Shown here: in pieces, positions 11,303 through 26,438 of the stretch
How positions within the stretch are numbered: position 1 is the first letter of the stretch
Layout: each line of letters opens with the position of its first letter
Assembly (NCBI GenBank): GCA_035714745.1
Contig: DASTLR010000008.1
Span: forward strand, 7,394-71,393
Origin: Minisyncoccota bacterium
GTDB taxonomy: Bacteria > Patescibacteriota > Minisyncoccia > Phycocordibacterales > UBA6065
Length of the DNA: 64,000 nt
Direction of reading: 5' to 3'
Translations under genes and position numbers: made by a program
Notes under the pieces: generated by a model
Told to the model about the DNA's origin: nothing
Database searches by the model: none
Seen by the model: only the letters and a program-made list of their open reading frames with translations

Positions 11303-12166
11303 ATGCGCGCTCTCCTGGGTTTCTTTGGGACAAAGATCGGCATCGCCGTCCTGGCGGCCATCGTCATCGTCGGCGCGGCAGCCGGATTCAAGTACAGCCG
11401 CTCGGCTCAGGAGAAGCAGAAAGGCGCCGCCACCCTCGTCGTCGAGCAGATCATCAAGGATTCCCTCAAGAACCTGAACGAGATAGAAGGGGACAGCGCC
11501 TTCGTCGCCTCGACCACCGGCCCAGACGACGCCGCTCCCCAGGAGCCGGCAGTGCCCTATACGGCTACCGACCGCTTCTCCCAGCAGATCTTCCGCGAAT
11601 ACATCTCGGCCAAGCAAAACGGCAAAGAGGTCGACGCCGACACCTCTGCCCGCATCGCCGAGAGCGTTCTTGCTCAAGATTATAGCGATAGAACGCCAGC
11701 CTACTCGGTTCTCGACCTCCATATCAGCGCCGACGAATCCGCCTCCTCTCTTAGAACGTACGGAAATAGCCTGGGAGCCATACTTTCAGCCCCGCCGGCG
11801 GCCAAAGAAAATGAATTAGAGATATTCCTCAAGCTCTCGTCAAAGTCGACAGACGACTATGGAAAAGAGCTGGCGGCCATACAAAAGCGCTATATTTCGA
11901 TGCGGACGGCGCTTTTGGCCCTGCCGGCGCCCAAAAGCTTTGCCGCGGCGCAGGTCGACATCCTTAATTCCCTCAACCTCTTCGTCGACGCCATAGACGG
12001 AGCGCTGAATATAGACGCTGACCCAATCGGGGCATTGAACAAGATAGCGCGGCATGACGACGGCATGACGGCCCTCCAAAAGGCCCTCGCTTCGATCAAA
12101 AAGACCTTCGCCGCAAAAGGCATGACCTTCGCGGCCAAAGAAAAAGGATTTATCCTCACAGAATAA
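11303..12166 (+). CDS. Hypothetical membrane-anchored protein
   Basis: An N-terminal TM helix (IGIAVLAAIVIVGAAAGF) followed by a soluble domain. It lies directly upstream of the T4SS-like locus. Confidence 0.4.
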   Translation: MRALLGFFGTKIGIAVLAAIVIVGAAAGFKYSRSAQEKQKGAATLVVEQIIKDSLKNLNEIEGDSAFVASTTGPDDAAPQEPAVPYTATDRFSQQIFREYISAKQNGKEVDADTSARIAESVLAQDYSDRTPAYSVLDLHISADESASSLRTYGNSLGAILSAPPAAKENELEIFLKLSSKSTDDYGKELAAIQKRYISMRTALLALPAPKSFAAAQVDILNSLNLFVDAIDGALNIDADPIGALNKIARHDDGMTALQKALASIKKTFAAKGMTFAAKEKGFILTE

Positions 12167-12195
12167 GGCCACATCGGTGGTATAATTTCCATATC

Positions 12196-14388
12196 ATGAA
12201 AGGCGGACTGCACCAAAAGATCGTTCTCTCGCTTCTCGTGCCCTTGCTCGCCGCCTCGAGCATGGTCTTTGGCACGGAAACCGCCTCTGCCGCCGTCGCG
12301 GGCTGTACCGCCAACGTCATCAGCGCCGCCGTAGGTAAAGGGGCGCTCGGAAAAGTGCTCGGCTCCGTCGTGCCGGTAGGCGACACCGTCACCAACATCG
12401 GCGTGACAGGCAGCTTCACCAAAGACTGCATCCTCACGCCGATCGCCATAAAGATGGCCCGCACCATGGCCAGGAACATCTCGAACAGCATCGTCAATTG
12501 GATCAATAGCGACTTCAAGGGCAAGCCTGCCTTCGTCACCGATTTCGGCAGCCTGGCAAAGGATAGCGCCGACGAGGTCATCGGCAACTTCATCTACGGC
12601 AGCGACTTGAACTTCCTCTGCCAGCCGTTCTCCTTCAAGATCCGCCTGGCCCTGGCCACGAAGTATCAGCAGCCCTTCCAGGAACAGATCCGCTGCCGCG
12701 TGACGGACGTGACCAAGAACGTCTCGAGCTTCGTCAAGGCAAACGGGGGAGCGGGCTGGAACAACTGGCTCGAGATCACCACTCAGCCGCAGAACAACGT
12801 ATACGGCGCATACCTGATGGCCGATTCCCAGCTTGCCCAGAACGTCCAGAGCGCCCTGAACGTCAAGAACGACCAGCTCAAGATGGGCAATGGATTCTTG
12901 GACTTCCAGGTCTGCGAGAAATGGATAGAGCCCGGAAAGTCGAGCGGCATCGTCGCAGACAGCGCAGCGTCGGCCGCGGCCCAGTCCAGCACCTATTCCT
13001 CGAGCCCCTTCAACTCGACGCTCCAGCCGACGAATACGAGTCTGACCGGCGGATCGCTGGGCGCGTCTGGAAATTCTCCACTCCAGGGCGCTAGCGTCGG
13101 CTTCGGCGTTCCTGTGACGGCCAACACCCTGCCTACCTTCAAAGACAGCGCCGGAAAGACCTTTGGAGTCGAGAAAACCTGCAGCAAATGGGTCACAAAG
13201 ACTCCTGGCGCCTATGTCGCCGAGCTCGGCAAGCCTGTGTTGGGCGGCTGGGCGGATCAGCTGAATCTCGCCACCGATATCGATCAGATCGTCGGAGCGC
13301 TCATCAACCACTTCGGGGAGAAGGTCGTGAGCGGCGCCCAAGGCTTCCTCGGGCTGTCGTCAAAGGGCGGCTACGCGCAGAGCAACCTGAACTATGCGCA
13401 GGCTTCCACATTCGCAGACGACGCCTCGAATCCCGAGAATGCCGGCCTGGGCGATGCCGGCGCCGCCGCTTCGGACAGCTTCTCGGCGCTCTTTTCGGCC
13501 ACCCAGGTCAGCCTGGGCGACAGCCTGGCGGCAGGCAAGGCGGTCTCGATGTCGAGCCCCGGCATCGGCAGCTCGGCATGGGTCGTCGACGGGGACACCG
13601 GCACGGCCGCCGCCACTGCCGAGACAGTCAATCCATGGATTGAGGTGGACCTGGGCGAGCCTGCAGAGATCAGGGAGATCCATATCTGGAGCCCTACCGA
13701 CCAGACACCGGCAGAAAGCGTCGGAACCTTTGACGTCGTCGTCTCGAAGTCGCAGGGCGGCCGCGACTGGGTCAGTCCGCAGGCTACGCAGACGGAGACC
13801 AGTCCGAACCCCGCCGTCGTCTCGGTAGGCCAGACCGGCAGATATATCAGGATAGAGCGCTCAAGGAACTCATACGAATGCGGCGACCCAGAGCAGGGCT
13901 CGCAGACCTGCTACTATCCGCTCCGAGTGGGGGAGATCGAGGTCGTCGGCCCTGCCGCCGGTACGGAACAAGACGGCGCAGCCCAGAGCGCGAGCGTCTC
14001 GTTCGGCACGCCGAGCGGGGCCACCTCTATCCGTCCTTCCTCGGCCTTCTCCTTTACCATCCCTGTCAACGCGACCTCCGAGACGAACATCGCCTTCGTA
14101 GAGGTCAGGCTCTACGCCGGAACCGAGCTCGCGCCGTTCGCCTCGGCCTTTTCCAACGGCTCGGTCGGCCTGAAACAGAGCGGCGCCACCCGCAACGTCT
14201 ATCCCGCAGGCGCTCCCGGCGTAGATTTCACGGGCGTTTCGGCCGGTCCGACCTCTGGAACCGCCATCACTGTCGCCGGTACCGCCCTGCCGCCGGGCGC
14301 CACGAGCGCGTACAAGATCGTGCTCACCGCCCGCGACGCAAATAGGGAAATCCTCGATACGGCTACTGTCAATTTCATAGTACAATAG
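12196..14388 (+). CDS. Large secreted protein with an F5/8 type C (discoidin) domain, a putative surface adhesin of the T4SS-like locus
   Basis: Signal peptide MKGG..LLAASSMVFG. The segment SAWVVDGDTGTAAATAETVNPWIEVDLGEPAEIREIHIW..RYIRIERS reads as a discoidin/F5-8C signature. Confidence 0.55.
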   Translation: MKGGLHQKIVLSLLVPLLAASSMVFGTETASAAVAGCTANVISAAVGKGALGKVLGSVVPVGDTVTNIGVTGSFTKDCILTPIAIKMARTMARNISNSIVNWINSDFKGKPAFVTDFGSLAKDSADEVIGNFIYGSDLNFLCQPFSFKIRLALATKYQQPFQEQIRCRVTDVTKNVSSFVKANGGAGWNNWLEITTQPQNNVYGAYLMADSQLAQNVQSALNVKNDQLKMGNGFLDFQVCEKWIEPGKSSGIVADSAASAAAQSSTYSSSPFNSTLQPTNTSLTGGSLGASGNSPLQGASVGFGVPVTANTLPTFKDSAGKTFGVEKTCSKWVTKTPGAYVAELGKPVLGGWADQLNLATDIDQIVGALINHFGEKVVSGAQGFLGLSSKGGYAQSNLNYAQASTFADDASNPENAGLGDAGAAASDSFSALFSATQVSLGDSLAAGKAVSMSSPGIGSSAWVVDGDTGTAAATAETVNPWIEVDLGEPAEIREIHIWSPTDQTPAESVGTFDVVVSKSQGGRDWVSPQATQTETSPNPAVVSVGQTGRYIRIERSRNSYECGDPEQGSQTCYYPLRVGEIEVVGPAAGTEQDGAAQSASVSFGTPSGATSIRPSSAFSFTIPVNATSETNIAFVEVRLYAGTELAPFASAFSNGSVGLKQSGATRNVYPAGAPGVDFTGVSAGPTSGTAITVAGTALPPGATSAYKIVLTARDANREILDTATVNFIVQ

Positions 14389-14393
14389 ACAGG

Positions 14394-16787
14394 ATGAGAA
14401 AGTTCCTGCCCCAATTCCTCCTTGCAACGACCGCGCTCGTCGGAGTAGGCTTCTTTTTCGCGCCGCATGAGGCGCACGCGTTCGAAGCGATAGACACCCT
14501 CGTGAAATTCCTGACCTTCAGCTCGGACATCGTCTATGGCACCCTGGGCAAGCTCTTCTGGTTCGGCACCGTGCCGATCACCAGCTTCGTGCTCTGGCTG
14601 GTCGGCATGATGATCGACCTGGCCACCAACCTCTCTCTGACTAACAATTTCTTTAACGCTCCCGCCATCGCCACGGCATGGAGCATCATCCGCGACCTCT
14701 GCAACATGGTCTTCATCTTCGTCCTGATCTGGGCGGGACTGAGGACCATCCTGAACCTCGGCAACGCGGTGACGGTCAAGAAGACCATCACCGGCGTGGT
14801 CATCGCCGCCCTTTTCATCAACTTCAGCCTCTTCATCACCAAAGCCATTATCGACGTCAGCAATATCGGCACGGCCTGGTTCGTCAAAGGCGTCGAGAAC
14901 GTCGGGGGAGGGACGAGCGTCAGCGATTCCGTGCGAAGCGTCCTCCAGATGAACAAGCTCGTCGAGAACAAGGACGCCGGCAAAGGCGCCTGGAGCCTGC
15001 AGTCGTTCGTCGCAGGCTTCGCCCTGACCATCTTGAACTGCGTCGCCATCTACGTGCTCTTCAAAGTCGCCTTCTTCCTGGTAGCCAGGATCGTATCGTT
15101 CTTCTTCTTGCTCGTCACCGCGCCGCTCGGCTTCGTCGGCGGGCTCGAGATACCGCAGCTCTCGGCCTATTCGAAGAAATGGTGGGACGAGCTCCGCAAC
15201 CAGGCCCTGATGGCCCCGATGTTCTTCCTCATGCTCTATATCACGCTCTACATCGTCGATCAGGTTGACGCTCTCGTCTTTGCCAACGGCGCGGCGAGCT
15301 CGGTCGATCCCGTCACTGGCTCCGGCTTCACCCCCGCGAACTACGTGATGTTCGCCATCATCGTCCTCATGCTCAATAAATGCCTCTCCACCGCCGAGGA
15401 ATACAGCGGCGAGCTCGGCGGCCAGATCGCGGGGTATCTCAAGAGCGCTACCTCATTCGTTGGCGGCGCGGCTCTCATGGGAACGGTGGGCCGGGCAGCT
15501 ACTTGGGCCAAGAATAACAAAAGCTTCCAAAGCCTCGCGGGCAGGAGCGCGATCGCCGGCGCTCTTTATGGCGGGACAACGAAAGTCGCCGAGTCTGGCT
15601 TCGGCGTAAAATCTAATTATAACCAGCTCGCAAAATCCACCGGCCTCAGCTCCATCGATCTGACTAAAAACGCGTTCAAAGGCGCAGACAGCTATGAGAA
15701 ACAGAGGAAATTCGAAATCGATGAGAAGAAGAAATTCGCCAAAACGCTTGGAAAGGGGCCTGAAGGGGAGGCTAACAGGATCGCATACGCCAATCGGCTG
15801 GACAAAGGCGTCTACGCTCAGACTGTCGGCAGGCTGACCGGAGACAAGGCCAACCTCAAGGAAGCCGCAAAGGATATGGCGAAAGACGCGAAGACGGCCA
15901 TGACCAAGGGAGTCAAAGACGACGCCAAGAAGAAAGCGACCGCGAAGCAGAATCAGGTTGTCGTAGCAGAAACCGTCCAGGGTATGCTCAAGAAGCCTAT
16001 GAACAGCGCCGACGTGGGCGAAGTCGACAAGGCAGCTAAATCCGGGAAGAAGCTCCTGGCAGAATTGAGGAAAGACCTCAAAGAAGAGAACAAGGACGAC
16101 TACCTGAAATTCGTAAGCGGATACGAGGAATCAAAAGGAAGAATAGATCCGGAGAGCAAGGCAGACAAAATCGGGATTGACATTGCCCGTCTCCAGACCG
16201 AGAAAATGGAAGCGGAATGGGCGTTGAATAGGAATCCTAAAGACAGAGACGCCGAGAAGAAATTCTCTGAGGTTAATGCAAAGATAGCTGAAAAGACCAA
16301 GGAGAAGGAAGAAGCAGCCGCTCAGGAGTCTAAACAGAGAGAGCGCTTCGCCGAGCTAGCTAAAAAGATAACCGCTGAGGATAGGAAAGAAGCTGCCAAG
16401 AAATTCTCTGGAATCTCCGCCAAAGAATGGACCAAGATAGCCGAGCAACAAGTCGCATACGAAGACGAGATCATCAAGAATATCGATGCCGCTGAAAAGG
16501 CCCTTGATAATGCGCTAGAGAAGGCGGAATACATAGGGACTAAGAAAGAGAACCTCATGGAGGCGCAAAAAGCCCTTGAGACCGTCATCGGAAAGACTCC
16601 GAAGTTCAAGGGCGGCAAAAAAGGTCAGCCGCGAGAAATCGACAAAGATAATCCAGGATCAGGCCTCAAGAAGCAGGCAGCCGATCTTAAAGAGAAGTTC
16701 AATGATAAGAACAAGGAGCTCACTATAGGCAAAGACGAACCAGAGAAAAAAGAGGAGAAACCTCCGGAAGCAGCTCCTTCTAAATAA
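14394..16787 (+). CDS. VirB6/TrbL-like polytopic membrane protein with a Lys/Glu-rich coiled-coil tail of about 400 aa
   Basis: At least six hydrophobic helices in the first 400 aa in a VirB6-like arrangement, followed by a low-complexity K/E/A-rich region. Confidence 0.55.
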   Translation: MRKFLPQFLLATTALVGVGFFFAPHEAHAFEAIDTLVKFLTFSSDIVYGTLGKLFWFGTVPITSFVLWLVGMMIDLATNLSLTNNFFNAPAIATAWSIIRDLCNMVFIFVLIWAGLRTILNLGNAVTVKKTITGVVIAALFINFSLFITKAIIDVSNIGTAWFVKGVENVGGGTSVSDSVRSVLQMNKLVENKDAGKGAWSLQSFVAGFALTILNCVAIYVLFKVAFFLVARIVSFFFLLVTAPLGFVGGLEIPQLSAYSKKWWDELRNQALMAPMFFLMLYITLYIVDQVDALVFANGAASSVDPVTGSGFTPANYVMFAIIVLMLNKCLSTAEEYSGELGGQIAGYLKSATSFVGGAALMGTVGRAATWAKNNKSFQSLAGRSAIAGALYGGTTKVAESGFGVKSNYNQLAKSTGLSSIDLTKNAFKGADSYEKQRKFEIDEKKKFAKTLGKGPEGEANRIAYANRLDKGVYAQTVGRLTGDKANLKEAAKDMAKDAKTAMTKGVKDDAKKKATAKQNQVVVAETVQGMLKKPMNSADVGEVDKAAKSGKKLLAELRKDLKEENKDDYLKFVSGYEESKGRIDPESKADKIGIDIARLQTEKMEAEWALNRNPKDRDAEKKFSEVNAKIAEKTKEKEEAAAQESKQRERFAELAKKITAEDRKEAAKKFSGISAKEWTKIAEQQVAYEDEIIKNIDAAEKALDNALEKAEYIGTKKENLMEAQKALETVIGKTPKFKGGKKGQPREIDKDNPGSGLKKQAADLKEKFNDKNKELTIGKDEPEKKEEKPPEAAPSK

Positions 16788-16793
16788 CCAGCC

Positions 16794-17309
16794 ATGGACA
16801 CACAACAAATAGCTGAAAAGATACTTTCGGTGGGAAAAGCCCATAGCCTGAACCTCGAACAGATCGGCATGCTCGAGAGCATCGTCAGAGACGTCGTTGA
16901 GGGCAGGACTTCAGCTGGGGACTTCGTCAGTAGCATAGAAGACGCACTGAACCTCGAAGACGACGAACTGACTTCGCTTGCCGCTGACATCAACCTTGAA
17001 GTGCTCATGCCTATCAGGGAGAGCCTGATCGAAGATCAGGCGAGCGATACAGAGGAAGACCTGACAGAAAAAGAAACCGACGACACCCGCGAATCCATCC
17101 TCGCCGAGATCGAGAATCCGAGCCCGACCGTCCATCCGATATCTGCCGCCGACCAGACGGTGGCGGGGCCTGCCGCGGCCAGGGAAGTGATCGCCGAGCG
17201 CCTGAGCCAGCCGGTCAGCTCGCCCGCCCAAACGATCGTCGTACCGCCGAAAGCGCCGGAAAAGCCCCGCGGCTACGCCGTAGATCCGTATCGCGAGCCG
17301 ATCAATTAG
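16794..17309 (+). CDS. Hypothetical acidic protein inside the T4SS-like locus
   Basis: Asp/Glu-rich ORF with no TM segment, tightly linked to its neighbours. Confidence 0.4.
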   Translation: MDTQQIAEKILSVGKAHSLNLEQIGMLESIVRDVVEGRTSAGDFVSSIEDALNLEDDELTSLAADINLEVLMPIRESLIEDQASDTEEDLTEKETDDTRESILAEIENPSPTVHPISAADQTVAGPAAAREVIAERLSQPVSSPAQTIVVPPKAPEKPRGYAVDPYREPIN

Positions 17310-17344
17310 ACGGCGGGCCCATGCCGGCATGCTAGACTATAGCC

Positions 17345-17791
17345 ATGCGTTTCCAGGTCCCTCAATTCATCGAGGTCGAGGACAAGATCTTCGGCCCTCT
17401 GACCATCAAGCAGTTCATCTACCTCCTGGGCGGGGCCGGCCTCTCCTTTATCGTCTATAGCTTCGTCGGCAACCTCTTTCTGAGCGCCGTCTTCATCGTG
17501 CCGATCATGGCCTTTGCCCTGGCTCTGGCCTTCTACAAAGTGAACGGCAAGCCCTTCATCAACGTCGTCGAGGCGGCCTTTACTTACTTCGTCAACAGCA
17601 AGCTCTATATCTGGAAGAAGGTCGACAAGGTCCCGGTAGCCAAGAACGCCCCGACCGCGGCAGGCGCCGCCTCGCCCGATTTCTATGTGCCAAAGCTGTC
17701 GGATTCCAAGCTCAAGGACCTGACCTGGTCGCTCGACATCAAGCAGAGCCAGAACCCCGCCCAGAACCAGAAAGGGAAGAGCAATTTCTAG
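17345..17791 (+). CDS. PrgI/VirB3-like small membrane protein
   Basis: Two TM helices (LGGAGLSFIVYSFVGNLFLSAVFIVPIMAFALALAF) sit directly upstream of the VirB4 gene, as in Gram-positive conjugation loci. Confidence 0.5.
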   Translation: MRFQVPQFIEVEDKIFGPLTIKQFIYLLGGAGLSFIVYSFVGNLFLSAVFIVPIMAFALALAFYKVNGKPFINVVEAAFTYFVNSKLYIWKKVDKVPVAKNAPTAAGAASPDFYVPKLSDSKLKDLTWSLDIKQSQNPAQNQKGKSNF

Positions 17792-17807
17792 ATGATATAC
17801 TTCTAAG

Positions 17808-18443
17808 ATGGCAGTGAACGCAAAAACGACCCAGGAATTCGTGCCGATCAAGGAGATCCGCCAGGGTGTGGTCATCCTCAAGGACGATTCCCTGCGGGGC
17901 ATCGTCATAGCCTCGTCCCTGAACTTCGCCCTGAAGTCCGCCGAGGAGCAGCAGTCGATCATCCTGCAGTTCCAGAACTTCCTGAACTCGCTCGATTTCT
18001 CCGTGCAGATCTTCATCCAGTCCCGAAAGCTCGACATCAGGCCCTATATCGCTCTATTAGAGAACAGACTCAAGGAGCAGGTGGGCGACCTCTTGAAAAT
18101 GCAGACGCGCGAGTACATCTCATTCATCAAGAACTTCACCGAGAGCCAGAACATCATGAGCAAGACCTTCTTCGTCGTGGTGCCCTATACTCCGGCACCG
18201 GTGAGCGCCAGCGGCATCGCCGACGTCCTGGGGAAAAAGAAGACGGCGACCGAGACGGCCGAGCAGCGCCTGGCCGAATTCGAGGAGCACAGGAGCCAGC
18301 TGGAGCAGAGGATGGGCGTGGTGACCCAGGGCCTGGTGCGCTGCGGCATCCGCACCATCGAGCTGGGCACCGAGGAGGTCGTCGAGCTCTTCTACAAGAT
18401 CTTTAACCCGGGCGATACGGAAAAGCCTATTCCACTTTCATAA
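17808..18443 (+). pseudogene. virB4: VirB4-family ATPase, N-terminal fragment of about 211 aa, separated from the rest of the gene by a stop plus a +1 frame change
   Basis: TQEFVPIKEIRQGVVILKDDSLRGIV matches the N-terminal motif of Gram-positive VirB4/TraE/Orf16 proteins. The ORF ends at TAA 4 nt before the next ORF, which is in another frame. Confidence 0.55.
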
Positions 18444-18447
18444 TCCT

Positions 18448-20250
18448 ATGGGAATATTCGATTTTCTAAAGAAGAAGAGCAAGGTAGAGATAGCTCCGAT
18501 CCTACCTCAAGAAATATACGAAGCGGGCGTCTTGGAATTAAAAGACGTCATCGCCCCGTCGGCCCTCAAGGTATCGCCGCGCGAGCTCTCCCTGGGTGAC
18601 AAGATCGTCAGGTCCTTCTTCGTCATCTCGTACCCGCGCTTCCTCTCGGAGAGCTGGTTCGCCCCGATCATCAACTTGGACAAGGTCTTCAACATCTCTA
18701 TCTTCATCCACCCGGTCGAGACGGCCAAGGTCCTCCGCCAATTCCAAAAGAAAGTAGCCGAGGTCCAGAGCCAGATCTCCATCAGGGAACAGAAAGGATT
18801 AGTGCGCGATCCGATGCTCGATACGGCATACCAGGACCTGGAATCGCTCCGCGACAACCTCATGCAGGCTCAGGAGAAGCTCTTCGACGTGGGCGTCTAT
18901 ATCTCGATCTACGGCGACAGCGCCAGCGAGCTGGACAAGACCGAGTCCGAGATCAAGTCGATCCTGGAGTCCAAGCTGGTCTACGTCAAGCCGGCCCTCT
19001 TCCAACAGGAGCAGGGCTACAAGAGCAACCTGCCGACAGCCACCGACCAGCTTTTGGTCCATTCCAAGCTGAATTCCAGCCCTCTTTCCAGTCTTTTCCC
19101 GTTCATCTCCTTCGACCTGACCTCGGACAAGGGCATCCTCTACGGCATCAACAGGCATAACTCGTCCCTGGTGCTCTTCGACCGCTTCTCGCTCGAGAAC
19201 TACAACTCCATCACCTTTGCCAAGTCCGGCGCCGGAAAGTCATACGCCACCAAGCTGGAGATCCTGCGAACGCTGATGTTCGACACCGACGTCATCGTCA
19301 TCGACCCCGAGAAAGAATACGAATACCTGGCCGAATCGACGGGAGGCAAATACTTCAACATCTCGCTCAATTCCGAGCATCGCATCAATCCCTTCGACCT
19401 GCCGCTGCCGCGCGAGGACGAGTCGCCAGCCGACGTCCTGCGCTCGAACATCATCAACCTGGTCGGCCTGTTCCGCATCATGATGGGCGGCCTGACGCCC
19501 GAGGAGGACGCCATCATCGACCGCGCCATCACCGAGACCTACGCCCTCAAGGACATCACCCCGGACACTGACTTCTCGCACACCGAGGCGCCGCTGCTCT
19601 CGGACTTCGAGCTGGTGCTCGCCGGCATGGAGGGAGGGGAGTCCCTGGTCCAGCGCCTGACGAAATACACCAAGGGCACCTGGTCCGGCTTCATCAACAG
19701 GCCGACGAACGTCGACATCGGCGCCAAATTCGTGGTCTTCTCGCTCCGCGACATGGAGGACGAGCTCAAGCCGGTGGCCATGTATATCGTCACCCACTAC
19801 ATCTCGAACGCCGTGAGGAAGAACGTCAAGAAGCGCCTGCTCGTCATCGACGAGGCGTGGTGGATGATGAAATCCGAAGACACGGCCTCGTTCCTCCTGG
19901 GCTTGGCCAAGCGCGGACGCAAGTATTTCCTAGGCCTGGCCACCATCACCCAGGACGTCGACGACTTCCTTAAATCGCCGTACGGCCTACCGATCATCAC
20001 CAACTCCTCGATCCAGGTCCTCCTCAAGCAATCGCCGTCGTCGATCGACCGTCTCCAGCAGGTCTTCAATCTCACCGACGAGGAGAAATACCTCCTCCTC
20101 GAGTCCGACGTGGGAGAGGGCATATTCTTCGTCGGCTTGAAACACGTGGCCATAAAGGTCATCGCCTCGTATACCGAGGACCAGATCATCACCTCGGACC
20201 CCGCCCAGATATTGGCTATAAAGGAAGCGAAGAAGAATCTGGCGCAGTAG
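18448..20250 (+). CDS. virB4: VirB4-family ATPase, C-terminal 600 aa piece with a Walker A box
   Basis: IAPSALKVSPRELSLGDKIVRSFFVISYPRF is the VirB4 mid-N-terminal motif. Later come the Walker A box AKSGAGKSY, a Walker B box LLVIDEAWWMM and the C-terminal TraC/VirB4 motifs. Confidence 0.8.
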   Translation: MGIFDFLKKKSKVEIAPILPQEIYEAGVLELKDVIAPSALKVSPRELSLGDKIVRSFFVISYPRFLSESWFAPIINLDKVFNISIFIHPVETAKVLRQFQKKVAEVQSQISIREQKGLVRDPMLDTAYQDLESLRDNLMQAQEKLFDVGVYISIYGDSASELDKTESEIKSILESKLVYVKPALFQQEQGYKSNLPTATDQLLVHSKLNSSPLSSLFPFISFDLTSDKGILYGINRHNSSLVLFDRFSLENYNSITFAKSGAGKSYATKLEILRTLMFDTDVIVIDPEKEYEYLAESTGGKYFNISLNSEHRINPFDLPLPREDESPADVLRSNIINLVGLFRIMMGGLTPEEDAIIDRAITETYALKDITPDTDFSHTEAPLLSDFELVLAGMEGGESLVQRLTKYTKGTWSGFINRPTNVDIGAKFVVFSLRDMEDELKPVAMYIVTHYISNAVRKNVKKRLLVIDEAWWMMKSEDTASFLLGLAKRGRKYFLGLATITQDVDDFLKSPYGLPIITNSSIQVLLKQSPSSIDRLQQVFNLTDEEKYLLLESDVGEGIFFVGLKHVAIKVIASYTEDQIITSDPAQILAIKEAKKNLAQ

Positions 20251-20266
20251 AGGCCTGTGGTACAAT

Positions 20267-21289
20267 ATGCGCATGTCGCGCTTAGCAAAAAGCACTTTCT
20301 TTATCCTATCTTCTCTGGTGTTCTTGGTGTTCTCTGTGCTCTCTGTCTCTTCCGTATCGGCCCAGGGCATCCCCGGCATCTCCGCTCCTCTCATCCTCAC
20401 CATGGAGCCAGCCAATCCCAAGCCGCTCCAGACCGTCAACCTCTCGCTAAAAAGCTTCAGCCTCGACATCGACAAGGCGTCCATATCATGGACCGTCAAC
20501 GGTAAAGTAGCCGCCCGCGGCATAGGCATGAAGGTCTTTAGCGTCCAGGCTGGGTCTTTGGGCTCCTCAAAGACCGTTGAAGCGGTGGTCGCCACCGACT
20601 CCGAGGGCGATTTGAGCCAGACGGCAGTCATCCGTCCGGCCGACCTGACCTTGATATGGCAGGCCGCGTCATACGTTCCGGCTTTTTACAAGGGAAAGGC
20701 CCTGCTTTCCTACGGCGGCGCCTACAAAGTCGTGGCATTGCCCGAGATCCTCGACGCGAACGGGCGAAAGATAGATCCGCGCACGCTCATTTACGCCTGG
20801 AAAAAGAACGAGGCGGCCCAGCAGGAGGCTTCAGGCTATGGAAAATCCTACTTCGTCAGCAGCCAGAGCAGCTTCGTCCGCCAGGGCGACGAGATCGCGG
20901 TCGAAGTGACCTCCCCGGCCGATGGCTTCACCGTCTCGGCGCAGACCACCGTCGTGCCGGTCGCCCCCGAGCTTCATTTCTATGAGGATAGCCCCCTGTA
21001 TGGCGTCGTCTTCGAGAAAGAGGCTGCGGGCAGGATGAAGCTGGCAAACGAGGAGGTCACGCTGGCCGCCGAGCCGTTCTTCTTTTCTGCTGTCGACAAG
21101 GGGAGCGCGCTCCTGGGCTACACGTGGACGCTCGGCGGGGCTGCGGTCCCGGAATTCCAGGATAAGCCCTCGATAACCCTGCGCCGCGCCACGGCGGCGG
21201 CCGGCTCGGCCTCTATCGGCCTGTCGGTAGGGAACAGCGCCAGGCTCCTGCAGGGCGCCGAACAGAGCCTTTTAATACAATATGAATAG
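20267..21289 (+). CDS. Hypothetical secreted protein of the T4SS-like locus
   Basis: Signal peptide LSSLVFLVFSVLSVSSVSAQG. The start is translationally coupled to the virB4 stop. No motif recognised. Confidence 0.45.
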   Translation: MRMSRLAKSTFFILSSLVFLVFSVLSVSSVSAQGIPGISAPLILTMEPANPKPLQTVNLSLKSFSLDIDKASISWTVNGKVAARGIGMKVFSVQAGSLGSSKTVEAVVATDSEGDLSQTAVIRPADLTLIWQAASYVPAFYKGKALLSYGGAYKVVALPEILDANGRKIDPRTLIYAWKKNEAAQQEASGYGKSYFVSSQSSFVRQGDEIAVEVTSPADGFTVSAQTTVVPVAPELHFYEDSPLYGVVFEKEAAGRMKLANEEVTLAAEPFFFSAVDKGSALLGYTWTLGGAAVPEFQDKPSITLRRATAAAGSASIGLSVGNSARLLQGAEQSLLIQYE

Positions 21290-22520
21290 GATGAAAAAAA
21301 CCTTTGCCGCCGTCGCATTCTCGCTCTACCTGGCGTTGGGCTTCGCGGCTGCCGCATCAGCTCAGGTAGATACCAACTACATACCTCTGACGACCGTTCC
21401 CGGCGCCTTTGAAGCCGGCAAGATCACGAACCCGGTAAAGGTAGTGGCGGGCGTCTACGGCATCGCCATCGGCATCGGATCGATCATCGCCGTCGTCATG
21501 ATCATCCTGGCCGGCTTCAAATATATGTACCAGGAGTCGATCGACGGCAAGTCAGACGCCAAAGAGCAGATCACCAACGCCTTCATAGGCCTCTTCGTCA
21601 TCCTCGGCTCGTATATCATCCTCAAGACCATCAATCCCGCGCTCGTCGACTTCGACGTCGAGCTCCGGGGCGGAAGCGGAAAGGTGTCCGGGCTCATCGC
21701 CATACAAAAGGAGCTCGATGCGACTCAATCAAAAGTAGCTCAAGCTAACGCCGCCACAGCCGAGCGGCAAAAAGAAATCGACGCTCTCAAGACTACGACT
21801 CTACCTAACAAGGAAAAAGAGATCCAAGCGATGAAAGACAGGATCGCAGCCGCAGAAAAGACAGCAGGCGGGCCGGGAAAAAAAGCCGTGCTCGACGAAC
21901 TTAATGGCCAACTCGCCAAGCTGGAGGGTGAGAAAGCCCAGATACTCGACACTATCAGCATAAAGACGATTGATAACCTAAAGACCATCGCCCAAAATAA
22001 TGTCACCCTTGGAAGAGACAATGTCTTCAAGAACGAGATCACCTCGCTCACCAAGATAACAGACCCGACCCAGGCTTCGGTTGAGGCAAGGGAATCCCTT
22101 CGAAGACTGGCGGTCCAGACAGACAGCCTTAAACTCGCGATGGAAAAGAAGATAGCCGAGGCCGAAACAATTGACGTAGCGATCGGCTCAAAAAGCGAGG
22201 TGGCTAAGCAAGAGTACTTCAATGCTGCCAACCAGGATTTGACATATATCAATCAATCAAAAAGCCTCATCACCGAAGCTCATGACACAATAAACGCCAA
22301 CTCTGGCGGTACAGACAAGCAAAATTCTGAATACAATGCGCTGCTCAGCAAATATGCGGGCTATGTTAAAGAACTTCAAGATTCCAATAGAAAGGACTTG
22401 GCAGACCGACTCCAAACCGATATTGATAGCGTGACCAAGATAATGAAAATCCGCCAAGCGGTGAATTGCGCGACATATGATGCGGCTCGTCGACAGCAGC
22501 TTACTCTCTGCCAACCATAG
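21282..22520 (+). CDS. VirB2/TrbC-like pilin-fold protein (signal peptide plus two TM helices) with a C-terminal coiled-coil extension of about 280 aa
   Basis: Signal peptide followed by two hydrophobic helices (VVAGVYGIAIGIGSIIAVVMIILAGF and AFIGLFVILGSYIILKTI), which is the TrbC/VirB2 topology. The rest is heptad-rich. Confidence 0.45.
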   Translation: MNRMKKTFAAVAFSLYLALGFAAAASAQVDTNYIPLTTVPGAFEAGKITNPVKVVAGVYGIAIGIGSIIAVVMIILAGFKYMYQESIDGKSDAKEQITNAFIGLFVILGSYIILKTINPALVDFDVELRGGSGKVSGLIAIQKELDATQSKVAQANAATAERQKEIDALKTTTLPNKEKEIQAMKDRIAAAEKTAGGPGKKAVLDELNGQLAKLEGEKAQILDTISIKTIDNLKTIAQNNVTLGRDNVFKNEITSLTKITDPTQASVEARESLRRLAVQTDSLKLAMEKKIAEAETIDVAIGSKSEVAKQEYFNAANQDLTYINQSKSLITEAHDTINANSGGTDKQNSEYNALLSKYAGYVKELQDSNRKDLADRLQTDIDSVTKIMKIRQAVNCATYDAARRQQLTLCQP

Positions 22521-22522
22521 CC

Positions 22523-23749
22523 ATGTCAAAGAAACTGTTCTTCTTCATCATACTGGCGGTCATCGCGGTCCTGGGCGTGGCGGGATGGTGGTTCCTGCGC
22601 CTACAGGTGGCGGCGCCGGCGGTACAGCAGCCTGACCAGACGGGGGAGGACCTCTTTCCTTTTGGCTCGGGAGCGGTAAAGCCGAGCGAGGCCAAGCCTG
22701 CAACCACCACCCAGCCTGTCTCGAACGTCACGGCTCCGACTTCGCCCGCGGCCCAGCCAAGGCTCCGCAAGCTCTCGTCCGAGCCTGCCGTCTCCGCGGC
22801 TTTCGTCTATTCAGCGACGTCGACGCGCGCCGTCCGCTTCGTCGACCGCGCCACGGGCCATATCCTGGAAGCGGCGGTAGATTCGGCCCTTCAGTCCACA
22901 CCGTCGAACGTCACCATCCCCCAGGTCAGGGAAGCGCTGTGGGGAGACAAGGCTTCGTCATTGGTCTATCGCTATCTGAAAGGCTCGACCGTCCAATCGT
23001 TCTACGCCGCTCTTAAATCCGGCACGGCGACGAGCTCCCAGCCGATCGAGGGCATATTCCTGCCGAGCGACATCCGATCGATGGCGGTGACCGGCGGCAA
23101 GATCCTCTATTTCGATCCTTCCGTCGAAAGCGGCCGCCTGATCATGGCGAATATGGACGGATCAAAGAAAGCCACGGTCTGGACCTCTGATTTCGGCGAG
23201 TGGGCAATCTCCTCGGTAAATCCCGCAAAGGCTTTCATATATACCAAACCGAGCGCCTCAGCTAACGGCGTCGGCTACATCGTCGACACTACAAAGGGCA
23301 CGGCTACGAAGGTCGTCGGCGACGCTGCCGGCCTCGAGGGTTCGATCGGCCCGTCCGGCGACTACGTCTTCCTCTCGGCCGCTTCGGGCTCGGGAATCGC
23401 TTCAGCGTCGTATTCGGCCGCCAAAAAGACGGTCAGCCAGCTCTCCCTGAGCACGCTAGCCTCCAAATGCGCCTGGAGCGGCGCATCGAAAAAGACGGTC
23501 TACTGCGGAATCCCTGCGAACCTTGAAAGCGCCGCATACCCTGACGACTGGTACAAGGGCTCCGTCAGCTTCTCTGACAGGCTCTGGAAGATCGACATGG
23601 AAACGGGAGAGACCGAGGTCGTCTTGGACCCCTTCCTCGACAGCCTGAACGAATTCGACATGACGAACCTGACGGTCGATCCGACGGATACCTATCTGGC
23701 CTTTGTGAACAAGAAAGACCTCTCGCTCTGGCTGTACAAGATCAAATAA
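22523..23749 (+). CDS. Hypothetical membrane-anchored extracytoplasmic protein, last gene of the T4SS-like locus
   Basis: N-terminal TM helix FFFIILAVIAVLGVAGWWF, a Pro/Thr-rich linker, then a beta-rich domain. Confidence 0.45.
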   Translation: MSKKLFFFIILAVIAVLGVAGWWFLRLQVAAPAVQQPDQTGEDLFPFGSGAVKPSEAKPATTTQPVSNVTAPTSPAAQPRLRKLSSEPAVSAAFVYSATSTRAVRFVDRATGHILEAAVDSALQSTPSNVTIPQVREALWGDKASSLVYRYLKGSTVQSFYAALKSGTATSSQPIEGIFLPSDIRSMAVTGGKILYFDPSVESGRLIMANMDGSKKATVWTSDFGEWAISSVNPAKAFIYTKPSASANGVGYIVDTTKGTATKVVGDAAGLEGSIGPSGDYVFLSAASGSGIASASYSAAKKTVSQLSLSTLASKCAWSGASKKTVYCGIPANLESAAYPDDWYKGSVSFSDRLWKIDMETGETEVVLDPFLDSLNEFDMTNLTVDPTDTYLAFVNKKDLSLWLYKIK

Positions 23750-23761
23750 GAGGCCGAAAGG

Positions 23762-24505
23762 CTATTTCGCCGCCTTCTCTCGGGCGATCTGCCTCCTGAT
23801 ATAGAGCTCCTGGCCGATCATAAAGAGGTTGCTGGTGATCCAGTAGATCGCCAGGGCGCCGGCGACGTTCCACGAGATGAAGAATATCATCACCGGAAAG
23901 ACGTATTTCATCTGGGCCTGCATGTTGCGCGCCAGGTCCTCGTGAAGCTTGGCTCCCGCCGCCGGCCGAGCCGCGGCTTTTGGGACGGAGATCGAGATCT
24001 GCAAGTACTGCGAGAGCGCGGCGAGCGCGGCCAAAAAGACGCTTTTCTGGGTCACGTCGATGAGGTCGAGGAAATGCGTGCCGATAGCAGGCGGGATGGA
24101 TACCCAGCTATAGAGGAGCTCGGTATGAACGGTCGAGAAACCGGTCGTATAAAAGATCCTATAGAGGGCGATGATGATCGGCAGCTGGATGAAGAGCAAG
24201 AGGATGCTGGAGAAGGGATTTATCTTCTTTTCCTTGTACAATGCCATGGTCTGTATCGCCTGGGCCTGCTTGTCGTCCTTGTATTTCTCCTTTATGGCGG
24301 CGAGCTCGGGCTCGACGGTCTTCATGACGACCTGCGTGCGAGCGGCTTTCTTCGAGATAGGGAAGAGCACCAGCCGAACGATGATGGTAAAGAGGATGAC
24401 GACCATGCCCGCGTCGATCCATGGAGCGAATCGAGCCGAGTTCATCAGGATGACCAGGCCGTTATAGAGGGGGTTATAGACGACCGTCGTATAGAGATAA
24501 TGCAT
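23762..24505 (-). CDS. yidC: Membrane protein insertase YidC (short, Gram-positive type)
   Basis: The YidC/Oxa1 core helices and the conserved rpmH-rnpA-yidC synteny. Confidence 0.85.
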   Translation of the reverse strand: MHYLYTTVVYNPLYNGLVILMNSARFAPWIDAGMVVILFTIIVRLVLFPISKKAARTQVVMKTVEPELAAIKEKYKDDKQAQAIQTMALYKEKKINPFSSILLLFIQLPIIIALYRIFYTTGFSTVHTELLYSWVSIPPAIGTHFLDLIDVTQKSVFLAALAALSQYLQISISVPKAAARPAAGAKLHEDLARNMQAQMKYVFPVMIFFISWNVAGALAIYWITSNLFMIGQELYIRRQIAREKAAK

Positions 24506-24526
24506 ATTGATGAGTATAGACGCTGA

Positions 24527-24847
24527 TTATAGCACCCGAGAGAGCAGGGAGTGGACCTCGGCGGAGAGCCGCTCAGCGGGCGCCGTCAGAGCCTCCTTCT
24601 TCGGCATGAACATCACGAACGCCGGCTCTGCCGAGCGCAGGCGCTCCATGTCGAGCACGCCGTAGACGCGGCGGCGGGCGCGGTTGCGCTCGACGGCGGT
24701 CTTGAAGACCTTCTTTGACGCAGAAACGGCGAACTTGAGCCGTTTCGCGGGAATATAGCGCAAAGAAACAAGCGTCCCAAAGACGCTTTTTCCTTGCGCG
24801 AGGCATTCGATCTCACCAGACGCGAGTCGATCGCCCTTCTTGAGCAT
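24527..24847 (-). CDS. rnpA: Ribonuclease P protein component
   Basis: Basic 106 aa protein (RNRARRRVYG) in the canonical position between rpmH and yidC. Confidence 0.85.
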   Translation of the reverse strand: MLKKGDRLASGEIECLAQGKSVFGTLVSLRYIPAKRLKFAVSASKKVFKTAVERNRARRRVYGVLDMERLRSAEPAFVMFMPKKEALTAPAERLSAEVHSLLSRVL

Positions 24848-24984
24848 TAGACGTTCACTATCCTGGCTCGGCCTTTGTGTCGCCTGCGAGCCATGACCTT
24901 CTTTCCGGTCGGAGTGCTCTTGCGAGCGAGGAATCCGTGAGCGCGGGCTCGCTTTCGGTTACGGGTTTTGTATACGATCGCCAT
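24847..24984 (-). CDS. rpmH: 50S ribosomal protein L34
   Basis: My hand translation of the minus strand gives MAIVYKTRNRKRARAHGFLARKSTPTGKKVMARRRHKGRARIVNV. It is absent from the ORF track because it is shorter than 60 aa. Its stop overlaps the rnpA start (TAATG). Confidence 0.85.
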   Translation of the reverse strand: MAIVYKTRNRKRARAHGFLARKSTPTGKKVMARRRHKGRARIVNV

Positions 24985-25094
24985 AAAAATCTTGTTAACA
25001 GCTTGTGAACATATTATTAACATATTTACTTCGCATTCACAAGTACTAAAATTCCTTAAAGCGACTATACTTAATCCACTTCATCCGAGAGATC

Positions 25095-26438
25095 ATGGAT
25101 ACTAAAAAACTTTGGGAGAACGTGTCGGGCGCCATCGAGCTCCAGGTGTCGAAAGCGACCTTTAATACCTGGTTCCGCGACACCCACATCCACAAGATCG
25201 ACGAAGGGGTAGTGTACGTGGCGGTCCCTAATCCCTTTGTAAAGGACTGGCTCTCTGAGAAGCTCCACAAGGTCATCCTGAAATACCTCCGAGACTTCGG
25301 CAGCGACGTCAGGTCCATAGAATACGTCATCTCCAAGACTCCCGAGCGAAAAGAGCCCGTAGAAGACGCCTCGAGGCCTTCGCCGGTCTTCGAGTTGCCT
25401 CTCCAGGAGCACTATATAAACAAAGAGGATAACCTCAATCCTAAATATACGTTCGATTCATTCGTGGTCGGGCCCTTTAACGAGCTTGCCCATGCAGCCG
25501 CACAGGCGGTCCTCAAGAGCCCCGGAGTGGCCTATAACCCTCTTTTCATCTATGGCGATACCGGGCGAGGCAAGACGCACATCATGCAGGCAGTCGGGAA
25601 CGCTATAAAAGCCAACTATCCCGATAAAAAGGTCTTCTACGTCACCTCCGAGCGCTTCGCGGTCGACTACATGAACTCGCTCCAGCTGGGAACCGCAAAT
25701 AAATTCAAAGAACGCTATAGGAAATACGATGTCCTTATCATGGACGACGTACAGTTCTTCGCCAGCAAGGAAAAGATCCAAGAGGAGTTCTTCCACCTTT
25801 TCAATACCCTCAAAGAGAACAACAAACAGCTGATCTGCTCGTCCGATCGCCATCCGAACAACATCCCTGAGCTCGAAGACCGCATAAAATCGCGCTTTAA
25901 TGCCGGCATGATCGTCGACGTGGCCGCCCCGGACCTGGAATCCAGGCTCTCCATCCTGAAGGCGAAGCTATCGAAGCAGGGCATCAGCCTGCCGGCAGAG
26001 CTCATCGAATATATAGCCACCACTATAGAAGGTAACGTCCGCGAGCTTGAAGGAGTCATCAACTCGATCGCCATGCAGACCCAGCTAAAGGGCAGGGAGC
26101 TGAATATCATCGAGATCAAGGGCATCCTCAAGAACAATGCGAAACCAAAGAAATCCGTCTCGGTAAAAGATGTGGTGAAGGTCGTGACCGACTTCTATAA
26201 CATCGAGGAGAACAACATTTACGAAAAGACCCGTAAAAAGGAGGTGGTCAAACCGCGCCAGGTCATCATGTACCTCTTGCGAGAGGACTTGAATATCTCG
26301 TACCCCTCCATCGGCGAGAAATTAGGAGGCCGCGACCATACCACCGTCATCCATTCGTGCGAAAAGATAAAGGAAGACATAAAATCCAACCAAACGCTGG
26401 TGCAGGAGCTGAATCATATACGATCGCTTATCCTCTAG
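25095..26438 (+). CDS. dnaA: Chromosomal replication initiator DnaA
   Basis: The DnaA N-terminus, an AAA+ domain (GDTGRGKTH), a sensor box and a C-terminal DnaA-box-binding domain. Confidence 0.95.

What the first reader, a model, noticed from the sequence alone, without database searches (positions are those of the whole stretch)
17808..20250. VirB4 ATPase gene split by a stop codon plus a +1 frame change at about 18420-18448
The 211 aa ORF carries the extreme N-terminal VirB4 motif (vPIKEIrqGvvilkD). The next ORF begins with the motif normally found near residue 215 of full-length Gram-positive VirB4 proteins (IAPSAL..LSLGDKIVRSFFVISYPRF). The two ORFs are in different frames and 4 nt apart. 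Reading the +1 frame back from 18448 stays open to at least 18385, so a single-base indel, for example in the A4 run in acgGAAAAGcct at about 18420, would restore an 811 aa protein of ConE/Orf16 size. This could be a sequencing or assembly error, a genuine pseudogene that inactivates the system, or a natural two-gene arrangement.
Basis: seen in the sequence. Interest (0 to 1): 0.55.

Follow-up and report, generated by a model that had tools for sequence, protein, structure and literature searches.

The report
Natural two-gene VirB4: TrsD-like plus ATPase
The "broken" VirB4 secretion ATPase is not broken: in this group of ultrasmall bacteria (Patescibacteria) the first ~210 residues of VirB4 are always made from a separate small gene, a TrsD-like protein, next to a shortened ATPase gene, and this arrangement has already been published.

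Summary
A 211-aa ORF (17808-18443) and a 600-aa ORF (18448-20250) lie 4 nt apart in different frames, and together they tile a full-length Gram-positive VirB4.

The frameshift, pseudogene and sequencing-error readings are refuted:
- The 120 best database homologues of each piece are all about 206-222 aa or about 561-620 aa.
- In 78 of 78 testable species-level genomes the N gene ends at the same stop. The C gene starts at a conserved ATG (MGIFDFLKKK).
- Spacers range from -4 to 565 nt, and all three frame offsets occur (13/41/24).
- The residues after the proposed indel site (EKPIPLS) are conserved, with synonymous codon changes, up to the stop.
- dN/dS is 0.07-0.12 for the N gene and 0.03-0.07 for the C gene.
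- Four independent assemblies reproduce the junction exactly.

The N protein models well (pLDDT 85), and its only strong PDB match is TrwK/VirB4.

Firmicutes plasmids show the same order: PrgI, a TrsD-like gene, then a short VirB4. A rare 797-aa fused relative also exists.

Quiñonero-Coronel et al. 2025 (PMC12102498) already describe TrsD, which has remote homology to the VirB4 N-terminus, as the most abundant T4SS component in Patescibacteria. They find it usually next to virB4, near dnaA.

Verdict: ordinary and already known.

The parts
17345..17791 (+). PrgI-family (VirB3-like) small membrane protein gene, immediately upstream of the pair
   Evidence: Pfam PF12666 PrgI, E 7.5e-12, above the gathering score. 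PrgI sits directly upstream of the pair in the identical-sequence assemblies and in the Firmicutes plasmids pJFP838A and pGspE55-1.
17808..18443 (+). TrsD-like gene (211 aa), encoding a stand-alone protein that corresponds to the N-terminal ~180-200 residues of full-length VirB4
   Evidence: - NCBIfam: VirB4_plasma positions 101-233 of 894 (6e-11), TrsD/TraD positions 12-142 of 201 (2e-5), CD1110 positions 2-119 of 752, TIGR00929 positions 4-179 of 792.
- Of 75 family members, 75 match the VirB4_plasma model and 71 match TrsD.
- The database's precomputed Pfam family is PF26593 'TraC-like'.
- All 120 best homologues are 206-222 aa.
- dN/dS is 0.07-0.12.
18444..18447 (.). 4-nt spacer (tcct) between the TAA stop of the TrsD-like gene and the ATG of virB4
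   Evidence: Sequence read. In 78 related species the spacer ranges from -4 to 565 nt. The commonest sizes are 4 nt (16 loci), 5 nt (12 loci) and 1 nt (8 loci). Frame offsets 0/1/2 occur 13/41/24 times.
18448..20250 (+). Short-form VirB4 ATPase gene (600 aa): the rest of the VirB4 N-terminal region plus the C-terminal P-loop ATPase domain. Walker A (GAGKS) is at 19228-19242 and Walker B (VIDEAWW) at 19843-19863
   Evidence: - NCBIfam NF045971 'VirB4-like conjugal transfer ATPase, CD1110 family': 364.6 bits against a cut-off of 325, positions 185-733 of 752.
- Pfam P-loop_TraG, AAA_10 and DUF87.
- PDB 4ag5 (VirB4 C-terminal domain), E 1e-38. TrwK residues 330-735 align with query residues 152-549.
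- The 120 best homologues are 561-620 aa.
- The start ATG and the N-terminal motif M[GS][IL]FDFLKKK are conserved in related loci.
- dN/dS is 0.03-0.07.
21282..22520 (+). Gene in the same cluster with a T4SS pilin (VirB2-like) domain at its N-terminus. It is context for the system, not part of the split
   Evidence: Pfam PF18895 T4SS_pilin, E 1.2e-5, 25.7 bits, just below the gathering score of 26.6. It fits the VirB2-like pilins reported near virB4 in Patescibacteria (PMC12102498).

Best explanation
These are two genuine, separately translated genes of an origin-proximal Patescibacteria (Paceibacteria-type) type IV secretion system.

**What the genes are.** The first gene (17808-18443) encodes a TrsD-like protein. 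It is the detached N-terminal subdomain of VirB4. The second gene (18448-20250) encodes a short VirB4, comprising the remainder of the N-terminal region plus the P-loop ATPase domain.

**Shown here:**
- The split is conserved across hundreds of database clusters and across 78 species-level genomes.
- Spacing and frame between the two genes vary.
- Stop and start codons and both protein termini are conserved.
- Both genes are under strong purifying selection.
- The N protein has the fold of TrwK/VirB4.
- The two proteins tile full-length VirB4 models without overlap.
- A rare fused relative is collinear with the two pieces.

**Inferred, not shown:**
- The two polypeptides associate non-covalently to rebuild a functional VirB4.
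- In solved Gram-negative systems the VirB4 N-terminal domain links protomers, embeds in the membrane and contacts VirB3 and VirB8 (review PMC12857230, citing Macé 2022). The TrsD-like subunit therefore probably docks the ATPase to the PrgI/VirB3-like protein encoded just upstream.
- The usual 1-5 nt spacer or ATGA overlap suggests co-transcription and coupled translation.
For: 1. Lengths. The 120 best homologues of the N piece (75-100% identity) are all 206-222 aa. Those of the C piece (85-100% identity) are 561-620 aa. Of the 150 best representatives of 50%-identity clusters (36-75% identity), 149 are 146-443 aa and only one is 797 aa.
2. Junction geometry. I examined 78 testable GTDB species-representative loci.
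   - The N gene always ends at a stop aligned with residues 208-211.
   - The C gene always starts at an ATG aligned with its residue 1.
   - Spacers range from -4 to 565 nt, and frame offsets 0/1/2 occur 13/41/24 times.
3. Several loci carry a whole 114-134 aa 23S_rRNA_IVP-family gene between the two genes. They are therefore independent cistrons.
4. The C-terminal NPGDTEKPIPLS of the N protein is conserved, with synonymous codon variation, up to the stop.
5. dN/dS is 0.07-0.12 for the N gene and 0.03-0.07 for the C gene.
6. Four independent assemblies from four samples or runs have identical junction DNA.
7. The two pieces tile the CD1110 VirB4 model at positions 2-119 and 185-733 of 752.
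9. The fused relative P0296 (797 aa) is collinear with both pieces (N part 48% identity, C part 55%).
10. Firmicutes plasmids pJFP838A and pGspE55-1 have PrgI, then a 312-318 aa protein with a TrsD-like N-terminus, then a 636-641 aa DUF87 ATPase.
11. Literature. TrsD has remote homology to the VirB4 N-terminus and is the most abundant T4SS component in Patescibacteria. 1,664 of 2,272 homologues lie next to virB4, and the gene is essential in Ca. Southlakia epibionticum. The T4SS lies near dnaA (PMC12102498). Here dnaA is at 25095-26438 and dnaN at 26722-27822.
Against: - No direct evidence of a physical TrsD-VirB4 complex was obtained. The only attempt to model the two parts together, using the fused relative P0296, gave a poor model (pLDDT 63, pTM 0.47), which I did not use.
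- The N piece scores far below NCBIfam's curated TrsD cut-off (24 bits against 200). Strict membership of the pGO1-type TrsD family is therefore not established, only homology.
- The local Pfam copy gave no hit for the N piece, although the database's precomputed annotation lists PF26593.
- There is no Shine-Dalgarno sequence before the C gene. That holds for essentially all genes in the window, so it does not discriminate.
Confidence: 0.92

Rival explanations
1. Sequencing or assembly error: a single-base indel, for example in the A4 run at 18421-18424, artificially splits one 811-aa virB4 gene.
For: The +1 frame is open from 18325 to 18448, so one indel could formally fuse the ORFs. Homopolymer runs are typical error sites. 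A 797-aa fused relative exists.
Against: - Identical junction DNA appears in four independent assemblies from different samples or runs.
- The same split is present in 78 of 78 testable species genomes and in all 120 + 120 closest database clusters.
- The residues encoded after the A4 run in the N frame (EKPIPLS) are conserved with synonymous changes.
Confidence: 0.01
2. Genuine frameshift pseudogene: an ancestral single virB4 was broken in this lineage and the T4SS is inactive.
For: Full-length (~750-890 aa) VirB4 proteins are the norm in most Gram-positive and Gram-negative systems. The NCBIfam models CD1110, VirB4_plasma and TIGR00929 are all that long.
Against: - dN/dS is 0.07-0.12 and 0.03-0.07, with dS at or above 1. 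Both termini and the start codon are conserved.
- The arrangement is ancient. It is shared at 36-56% identity and with Firmicutes plasmids.
- Walker A and B motifs are intact.
- The TrsD homologue and the T4SS are reported essential in Ca. Southlakia epibionticum (PMC12102498; PMC12857230).
Confidence: 0.02
3. Programmed +1 ribosomal frameshift, or stop-codon bypass, produces a fused 811-aa VirB4 from the two ORFs, as in prfB-type recoding.
For: The commonest geometry, including the window, is a 4-nt spacer with a +1 offset (16 of 78 loci). A +1 offset is the most frequent class overall (41 of 78).
Against: - Offsets 0 (13 loci) and 2 (24 loci) are also common.
- Spacers reach 565 nt and can hold a whole foreign gene.
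- The sequence around the stop is not conserved, and no slippery site or Shine-Dalgarno stimulator is present.
- The C gene keeps a conserved ATG and a conserved N-terminal peptide, as expected for independent initiation.
Confidence: 0.02
4. The 211-aa protein is a paralogous accessory factor that merely resembles the VirB4 N-terminus, and not the missing part of a split VirB4. It would act independently of the ATPase.
For: [quoted passage not shown]
- Some relatives carry long low-complexity C-terminal tails (P0292 and P0311, 432-443 aa). The Firmicutes versions are 312-318 aa.
Against: - The C piece lacks exactly the region the N piece covers: model positions 2-119 against 185-733 of 752. 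TrwK residue 330 aligns with residue 152 of the C piece.
- The fused relative is collinear with the two pieces and has no duplication.
- Adjacency is conserved in all 78 loci.
Confidence: 0.05

Closest known systems
TrsD + VirB4 of the Patescibacteria T4SS (Quiñonero-Coronel et al. 2025, Microb Genom 11:001409, PMC12102498)
   Same: - A stand-alone ~210-aa protein homologous to the VirB4 N-terminus, encoded directly upstream of a VirB4 ATPase.
- PrgI/VirB3-like and VirB2-like pilin genes are in the cluster.
- The cluster is chromosomal and lies next to dnaA, dnaN, ksgA and yidC.
- All of these features are present in the window.
   Different: I found nothing substantive. The paper describes TrsD as a separate component with remote homology to VirB4. 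As far as I read it, it does not spell out that the adjoining VirB4 lacks that region, that is, that the two tile a full-length VirB4. It also does not report spacer or frame variability.
TrsD/TraD + TrsE/TraE of staphylococcal conjugative plasmids of the pGO1/pSK41 type (NCBIfam NF041427; MPF_FATA subclass)
   Same: A small protein (the model is 201 positions long) with VirB4 N-terminal homology. 71 of 75 members of the window's family hit the model, best E 1.4e-11.
   Different: - The window protein scores only 24 bits against a curated cut-off of 200, so it is a distant relative and not a member by NCBI's criterion.
- The plasmid systems are conjugative and have a relaxase. I did not search for a relaxase. 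None appears among the window proteins I scanned, and PMC12102498 reports that most Patescibacteria clusters lack one.
- I did not verify the gene order in pGO1 or pSK41 here.
Full-length VirB4 / TrwK (R388) / CD1110-family / ConE / Orf16-type ATPases
   Same: The combined 811 aa cover the same domains in the same order. The N piece has the TrwK fold. The C piece matches the VirB4 C-terminal domain structure 4ag5 and TrwK residues 330-735.
   Different: The polypeptide is encoded by two genes, split at about residue 185-235 of a full-length protein. A conserved new N-terminal peptide (MGIFDFLKKK...) sits on the ATPase part.
PrgI, TrsD-like and DUF87 ATPase clusters on Firmicutes megaplasmids (C. 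perfringens pJFP838A, Geobacillus pGspE55-1, many Bacillus plasmids)
   Same: Same three-gene order. The N-terminal ~190 aa of the middle gene is 25-31% identical to the window's N piece over more than 90% of its length.
   Different: The middle gene is longer (312-318 aa) and the ATPase is 636-641 aa. These genes are annotated only as hypothetical or DUF87, and they are on plasmids, not on the chromosome.

Membership tests
VirB4-like conjugal transfer ATPase, CD1110 family (NCBIfam NF045971), for the C piece | Whole-protein score at or above the curated cut-off of 325 bits | tested here: met
   364.6 bits, E 1.1e-108, model positions 185-733 of 752.
VirB4-like conjugal transfer ATPase, CD1110 family (NCBIfam NF045971), for the C piece | Walker A and Walker B P-loop NTPase motifs intact | tested here: met
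   GAGKS at residues 261-265 and VIDEAWW at residues 466-472. Pfam P-loop_TraG, AAA_10 and DUF87 hits. PDB 4ag5 at E 1e-38.
VirB4-like conjugal transfer ATPase, CD1110 family (NCBIfam NF045971), for the C piece | A single polypeptide that includes the N-terminal ~180 residues of the model | tested here: not met
   The C piece starts at model position 185. Positions 2-119 are matched by the separate 211-aa protein.
TrsD/TraD family conjugative transfer protein (NCBIfam NF041427), for the N piece | Score at or above the curated cut-off of 200 bits | tested here: not met
   24.4 bits, E 2.1e-5, positions 12-142 of 201. 71 of 75 family members hit the model, best E 1.4e-11, all far below the cut-off. 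This shows homology, not membership by NCBI's criterion.
TrsD homologues of Patescibacteria as defined in PMC12102498 (MPF_FATA TrsD profile) | A small stand-alone protein with homology to the VirB4 N-terminal portion, encoded next to virB4 | tested here: met
   211 aa. VirB4 N-terminal HMM matches. TrwK fold. The gene lies 4 nt upstream of virB4, and adjacency holds in 78 of 78 related loci.
TrsD homologues of Patescibacteria as defined in PMC12102498 (MPF_FATA TrsD profile) | A hit to the authors' own CONJScan/MacSyFinder TrsD HMM profile | not testable with these tools
   That profile is not in the libraries available here. The NCBIfam TrsD model served as a proxy.
Pfam PF26593 (TraC-like), for the N piece | Match to the Pfam model | tested here: inconclusive
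   The database's precomputed annotation lists PF26593 for the identical protein and for all 120 homologues. The local Pfam-A scan returned no family at E<=0.01. The local copy probably lacks that model.
Frameshifted pseudogene | Close relatives carry one intact ORF, and the broken copy shows relaxed selection | tested here: not met
   All close relatives are split in the same way. dN/dS is 0.03-0.12.
Programmed ribosomal frameshift gene | Conserved frame offset, conserved slippery or stimulatory sequence, and no independent start for the downstream part | tested here: not met
   Offsets 0/1/2 occur 13/41/24 times. Spacers range from -4 to 565 nt. The junction sequence varies, and the ATG and the N-terminal peptide are conserved.

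The most novel reading that the evidence does not exclude
The split could be functionally exploited and not merely tolerated. A separately encoded VirB4 N-terminal module would let the cell set the ratio of membrane-anchoring module to ATPase independently, or let the ATPase dock reversibly onto a pre-assembled PrgI/TrsD platform.

The variable C-terminal tails on some TrsD-like proteins could serve as lineage-specific adaptors. The conserved MGIFDFLKKK N-terminus of the ATPase could be the docking peptide.

Nothing here tests this. My evidence only leaves it open.
Probability: 0.15. Interest if true: 0.4.

Novelty: already known. Interest (0 to 1): 0.1.

Why it matters
The main value is for annotation. 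This locus, and thousands like it in Patescibacteria MAGs, should not be flagged as a frameshifted or disrupted virB4. The 211-aa gene should be named a TrsD-like or VirB4 N-terminal-domain protein, not "hypothetical".

The biology is of moderate interest. The T4SS is reported essential for the epibiotic lifestyle of a cultivated Patescibacterium, and its VirB4 works as two polypeptides. That arrangement has already been described (PMC12102498).

The additions here are small:
- Explicit evidence that the two genes tile a full-length VirB4.
- Structural support from the TrwK fold match.
- The variability of the spacer and frame.
- A rare fused relative.

Tried and rejected
1. Modelling the fused relative P0296 (797 aa), to see whether its N part docks on the ATPase part as in TrwK. 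The alignment mixed N-only and C-only rows. The model was poor (pLDDT 63.4, pTM 0.47, residues 385-512 below 50), so I drew no inference from it and ran no fold search on it.
2. Sequence searches of the N piece against PDB, as a single sequence and as a 75-sequence profile. They found nothing meaningful. Only the fold comparison found TrwK.
3. A search for more fused forms using the junction segment of P0296. It returned only a handful of junction-spanning fragments on short contigs (P0391-P0396). The word pre-filter limited it to 1,317 candidates, so the true frequency of fusions is not measured.
4. Literature searches for TrsD/TrsE gave mostly irrelevant acronym hits. Guglielmini 2014 (PMC4027160) does not mention TrsD in its main text.
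5. The local Pfam scan of the N piece gave no hit.
6. I considered and rejected sequencing error, pseudogene and programmed frameshift. The reasons are given under the rival explanations.
Full report
**Observation**

The window holds an ATG-initiated 211-aa ORF at 17808-18443 and an ATG-initiated 600-aa ORF at 18448-20250. They are separated by TAA-tcct-ATG and lie in frames offset by +1. The downstream frame is open back to 18325.

The open +1 frame carries little weight. GC3 in this region is 0.73-0.86, and the ORF list is full of long spurious ORFs in other frames.

**What the two ORFs are**

The C piece is a bona fide VirB4-type ATPase:
- NCBIfam NF045971 (CD1110 family) scores 364.6 bits against a cut-off of 325, but only over model positions 185-733 of 752.
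- Pfam gives P-loop_TraG, AAA_10 and DUF87.
- PDB 4ag5, the VirB4 C-terminal domain, matches at E 1e-38. TrwK residues 330-735 align with query residues 152-549.
- Walker A (GAGKS, residues 261-265) and Walker B (VIDEAWW, residues 466-472) are intact.

The N piece matches only the N-terminal ends of full-length VirB4 models, plus the stand-alone TrsD/TraD family model:
- VirB4_plasma positions 101-233 of 894, E 6e-11.
- CD1110 positions 2-119 of 752.
- TIGR00929 positions 4-179 of 792.
- TrsD/TraD (NF041427) positions 12-142 of 201, E 2e-5.

The two pieces therefore tile one VirB4 without overlap.

**Frameshift or natural split?**

Five lines of evidence agree.

1. Lengths.
   - The 120 best homologues of the N piece (75-100% identity, mostly Paceibacterota/Parcubacteria MAGs) are all 206-222 aa.
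   - The 120 best homologues of the C piece (85-100% identity) are 561-620 aa, and the shortest are flagged partial.
   - Among the 150 best representatives of 50%-identity clusters (36-75% identity), 112 are at most 260 aa, 37 are 261-443 aa and one is 797 aa.

2. Junction geometry. I fetched 80 species-representative genome loci and located both genes by tblastn. Two loci end before the C gene. In the other 78:
   - The N gene stops opposite residues 208-211.
   - The C gene starts at an ATG opposite its residue 1, with a conserved N-terminus M[GS][IL]FDFLKKK.
   - The spacer ranges from -4 nt (ATGA overlap, 3 loci) to 565 nt. The commonest sizes are 4 nt (16 loci), 5 nt (12 loci) and 1 nt (8 loci).
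   - Frame offsets 0, 1 and 2 occur 13, 41 and 24 times.

   No single indel and no single recoding mechanism fits this pattern. In six loci the 411-481 nt spacer holds an intact 114-134 aa gene of the 23S_rRNA_IVP/bAvd four-helix-bundle family, and two more loci hold broken copies of it. The two T4SS genes are therefore independent cistrons.

3. Conservation up to the stop. The last 12 residues of the N protein (NPGDTEKPIPLS) are conserved in the N frame with synonymous codon changes right up to the stop. This contradicts a frame change at the A4 run upstream.

4. Selection. Where dS is not saturated (0.98-1.83), dN/dS is 0.07-0.12 for the N gene and 0.03-0.07 for the C gene.

5. Independent assemblies. 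The same protein is encoded on contigs from four different runs or samples: two Logan assemblies (SRR10585489, SRR10585493) and two ENA assemblies (ERZ28571917, ERZ28571925). The 121-nt junction is identical in all four. There are 0-1 mismatches over 1.9-5.0 kb of overlap with the window.

**Depth of the arrangement**

tblastn of the N piece against PLSDB finds 333 plasmids, 285 of them from Bacillus. Identity is 24-31% in the listed hits, and 311 records cover at least 80% of the query.

In C. perfringens pJFP838A and Geobacillus pGspE55-1 the hit is the N-terminal part of a 312-318 aa 'hypothetical protein'. That gene lies between a PrgI-family gene and a 636-641 aa DUF87 ATPase. This is the same three-gene order as in the window (PrgI at 17345-17791).

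In the other direction, one 797-aa protein (P0296) is collinear with both pieces. Its residues 5-214 match the N piece (48% identity), and its residues 225-796 match residues 26-596 of the C piece (55% identity). A few junction-spanning fragments also exist. Fused forms are therefore real or at least plausible, but rare.

**Literature**

Quiñonero-Coronel et al. 2025 (PMC12102498) report the following:
- It is the most abundant T4SS component in Patescibacteria, with 2,272 homologues, of which 1,664 are associated with virB4.
- The homologue in Ca. Southlakia epibionticum ML1 is listed as essential.
- The T4SS often lies near dnaA, dnaN, ksgA and rnpA.

The window fits this description: ksgA at 10045-10866, yidC at 23762-24505 on the minus strand, dnaA at 25095-26438 and dnaN at 26722-27822.

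The review PMC12857230 summarises that VirB4 N-terminal domains link protomers, embed in the membrane and contact VirB3 and VirB8. It also states that the Patescibacteria T4SS is essential for epibiotic growth.

**Mechanism**

Shown: two conserved, selected, separately initiated genes whose products together equal a VirB4.

Inferred:
- The TrsD-like protein binds the short VirB4 non-covalently and provides the part that docks onto PrgI/VirB3 at the membrane.
- The tight spacing suggests coupled expression.

I could not test the complex. The only joint model, of the fused relative, was of low confidence and I discarded it.

**Verdict**

The frameshift, pseudogene and error interpretations are wrong. 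The arrangement is already in the literature, so the finding is ordinary and scores low.

Noticed in passing
L013 4137-4547, L019 4140-4560, L042 4140-4586, L055 4149-4590, L066 4137-4600, L074 1498-1978 (broken copies in L028 and L063; a 3' remnant in L014): In at least six related species the spacer between the trsD-like gene and virB4 holds an intact 114-134 aa gene of the 23S_rRNA_IVP / bAvd-like four-helix-bundle family (Pfam E 4e-43 and 6e-33 for the two tested). L028 and L063 carry frameshifted or split copies, and L014 keeps only the 3' end. This looks like a small mobile gene that repeatedly lands in, or is lost from, the same intergenic site.
   Followed up: partly
window 8105-27822: The T4SS cluster (about 14394-23749) is close to the replication origin. 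UvrD-like helicase is at 8105-10048, ksgA at 10045-10866, yidC at 23762-24505 (minus strand), dnaA at 25095-26438 and dnaN at 26722-27822. This matches the origin-proximal T4SS location reported for Paceibacteria in PMC12102498.
   Followed up: partly
window, the 25 nt upstream of gene starts at 8105, 11303, 12196, 14394, 17345, 17808, 20267, 21282, 26722 and others: None of the 16 gene starts inspected has a recognisable Shine-Dalgarno sequence. Many instead have a TAnnnT (-10-like) hexamer 0-12 nt upstream of the ATG, for example gatataat, ggtataat, tagtacaat, tggtacaatATG and ttaatacaatATG. This suggests leaderless or very short-leader mRNAs. No statistics were done.
   Followed up: no
P0296 (797 aa; from the 50%-identity representative library) and fragments P0391-P0396: A rare fused TrsD-VirB4 protein is collinear with the two window genes. 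A short linker (…EKRGEVIGRQGMGG…) replaces the conserved MGIFDFLKKK N-terminus of the ATPase. I could not check its genomic origin or rule out an assembly artefact.
   Followed up: partly
P0292 (432 aa), P0311 (443 aa), and 37 of the 150 representatives that are 261-443 aa long; L081 3881-4819; L082 3887-4843: Many TrsD-like proteins carry long C-terminal extensions. In P0292 and P0311 these are low-complexity tails rich in Pro, Ala, Gly, Gln and Thr. The Firmicutes plasmid versions are 312-318 aa. The function of the tails is unknown.
   Followed up: no
window 18448-18477 and the homologous starts in L001-L080: The first ~10 residues of the short VirB4 (M[GS][IL]FDFLKKK) are conserved across species, although this segment has no counterpart in the fused relative. 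GC3 of the first 30 codons is 0.50 against 0.86 for the whole gene.
   Followed up: no
L052 (DATGWK010000001.1); many loci titled 'uncultured Candidatus Saccharibacteria'; P0189, P0439, P0508: Several contigs with this Paceibacteria-type trsD-virB4 pair are labelled as other taxa: Nanoarchaeia archaeon, Saccharibacteria, Thermodesulfobacteriota, Omnitrophota and Flavobacteriaceae. These are probably mis-binned or mislabelled MAG contigs.
   Followed up: no
window 14394-16787, 16794-17309, 20267-21289, 22523-23749: Four further genes of the cluster have no Pfam or NCBIfam match. One is a 797-aa protein with a hydrophobic N-terminal half and a Lys/Glu-rich C-terminal half, which is a possible VirB6 analogue. 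The others are 171, 340 and 408 aa, and the last two have signal-peptide-like N-termini. The 340-aa and 412-aa genes overlap by 8 nt (21282-21289).
   Followed up: no
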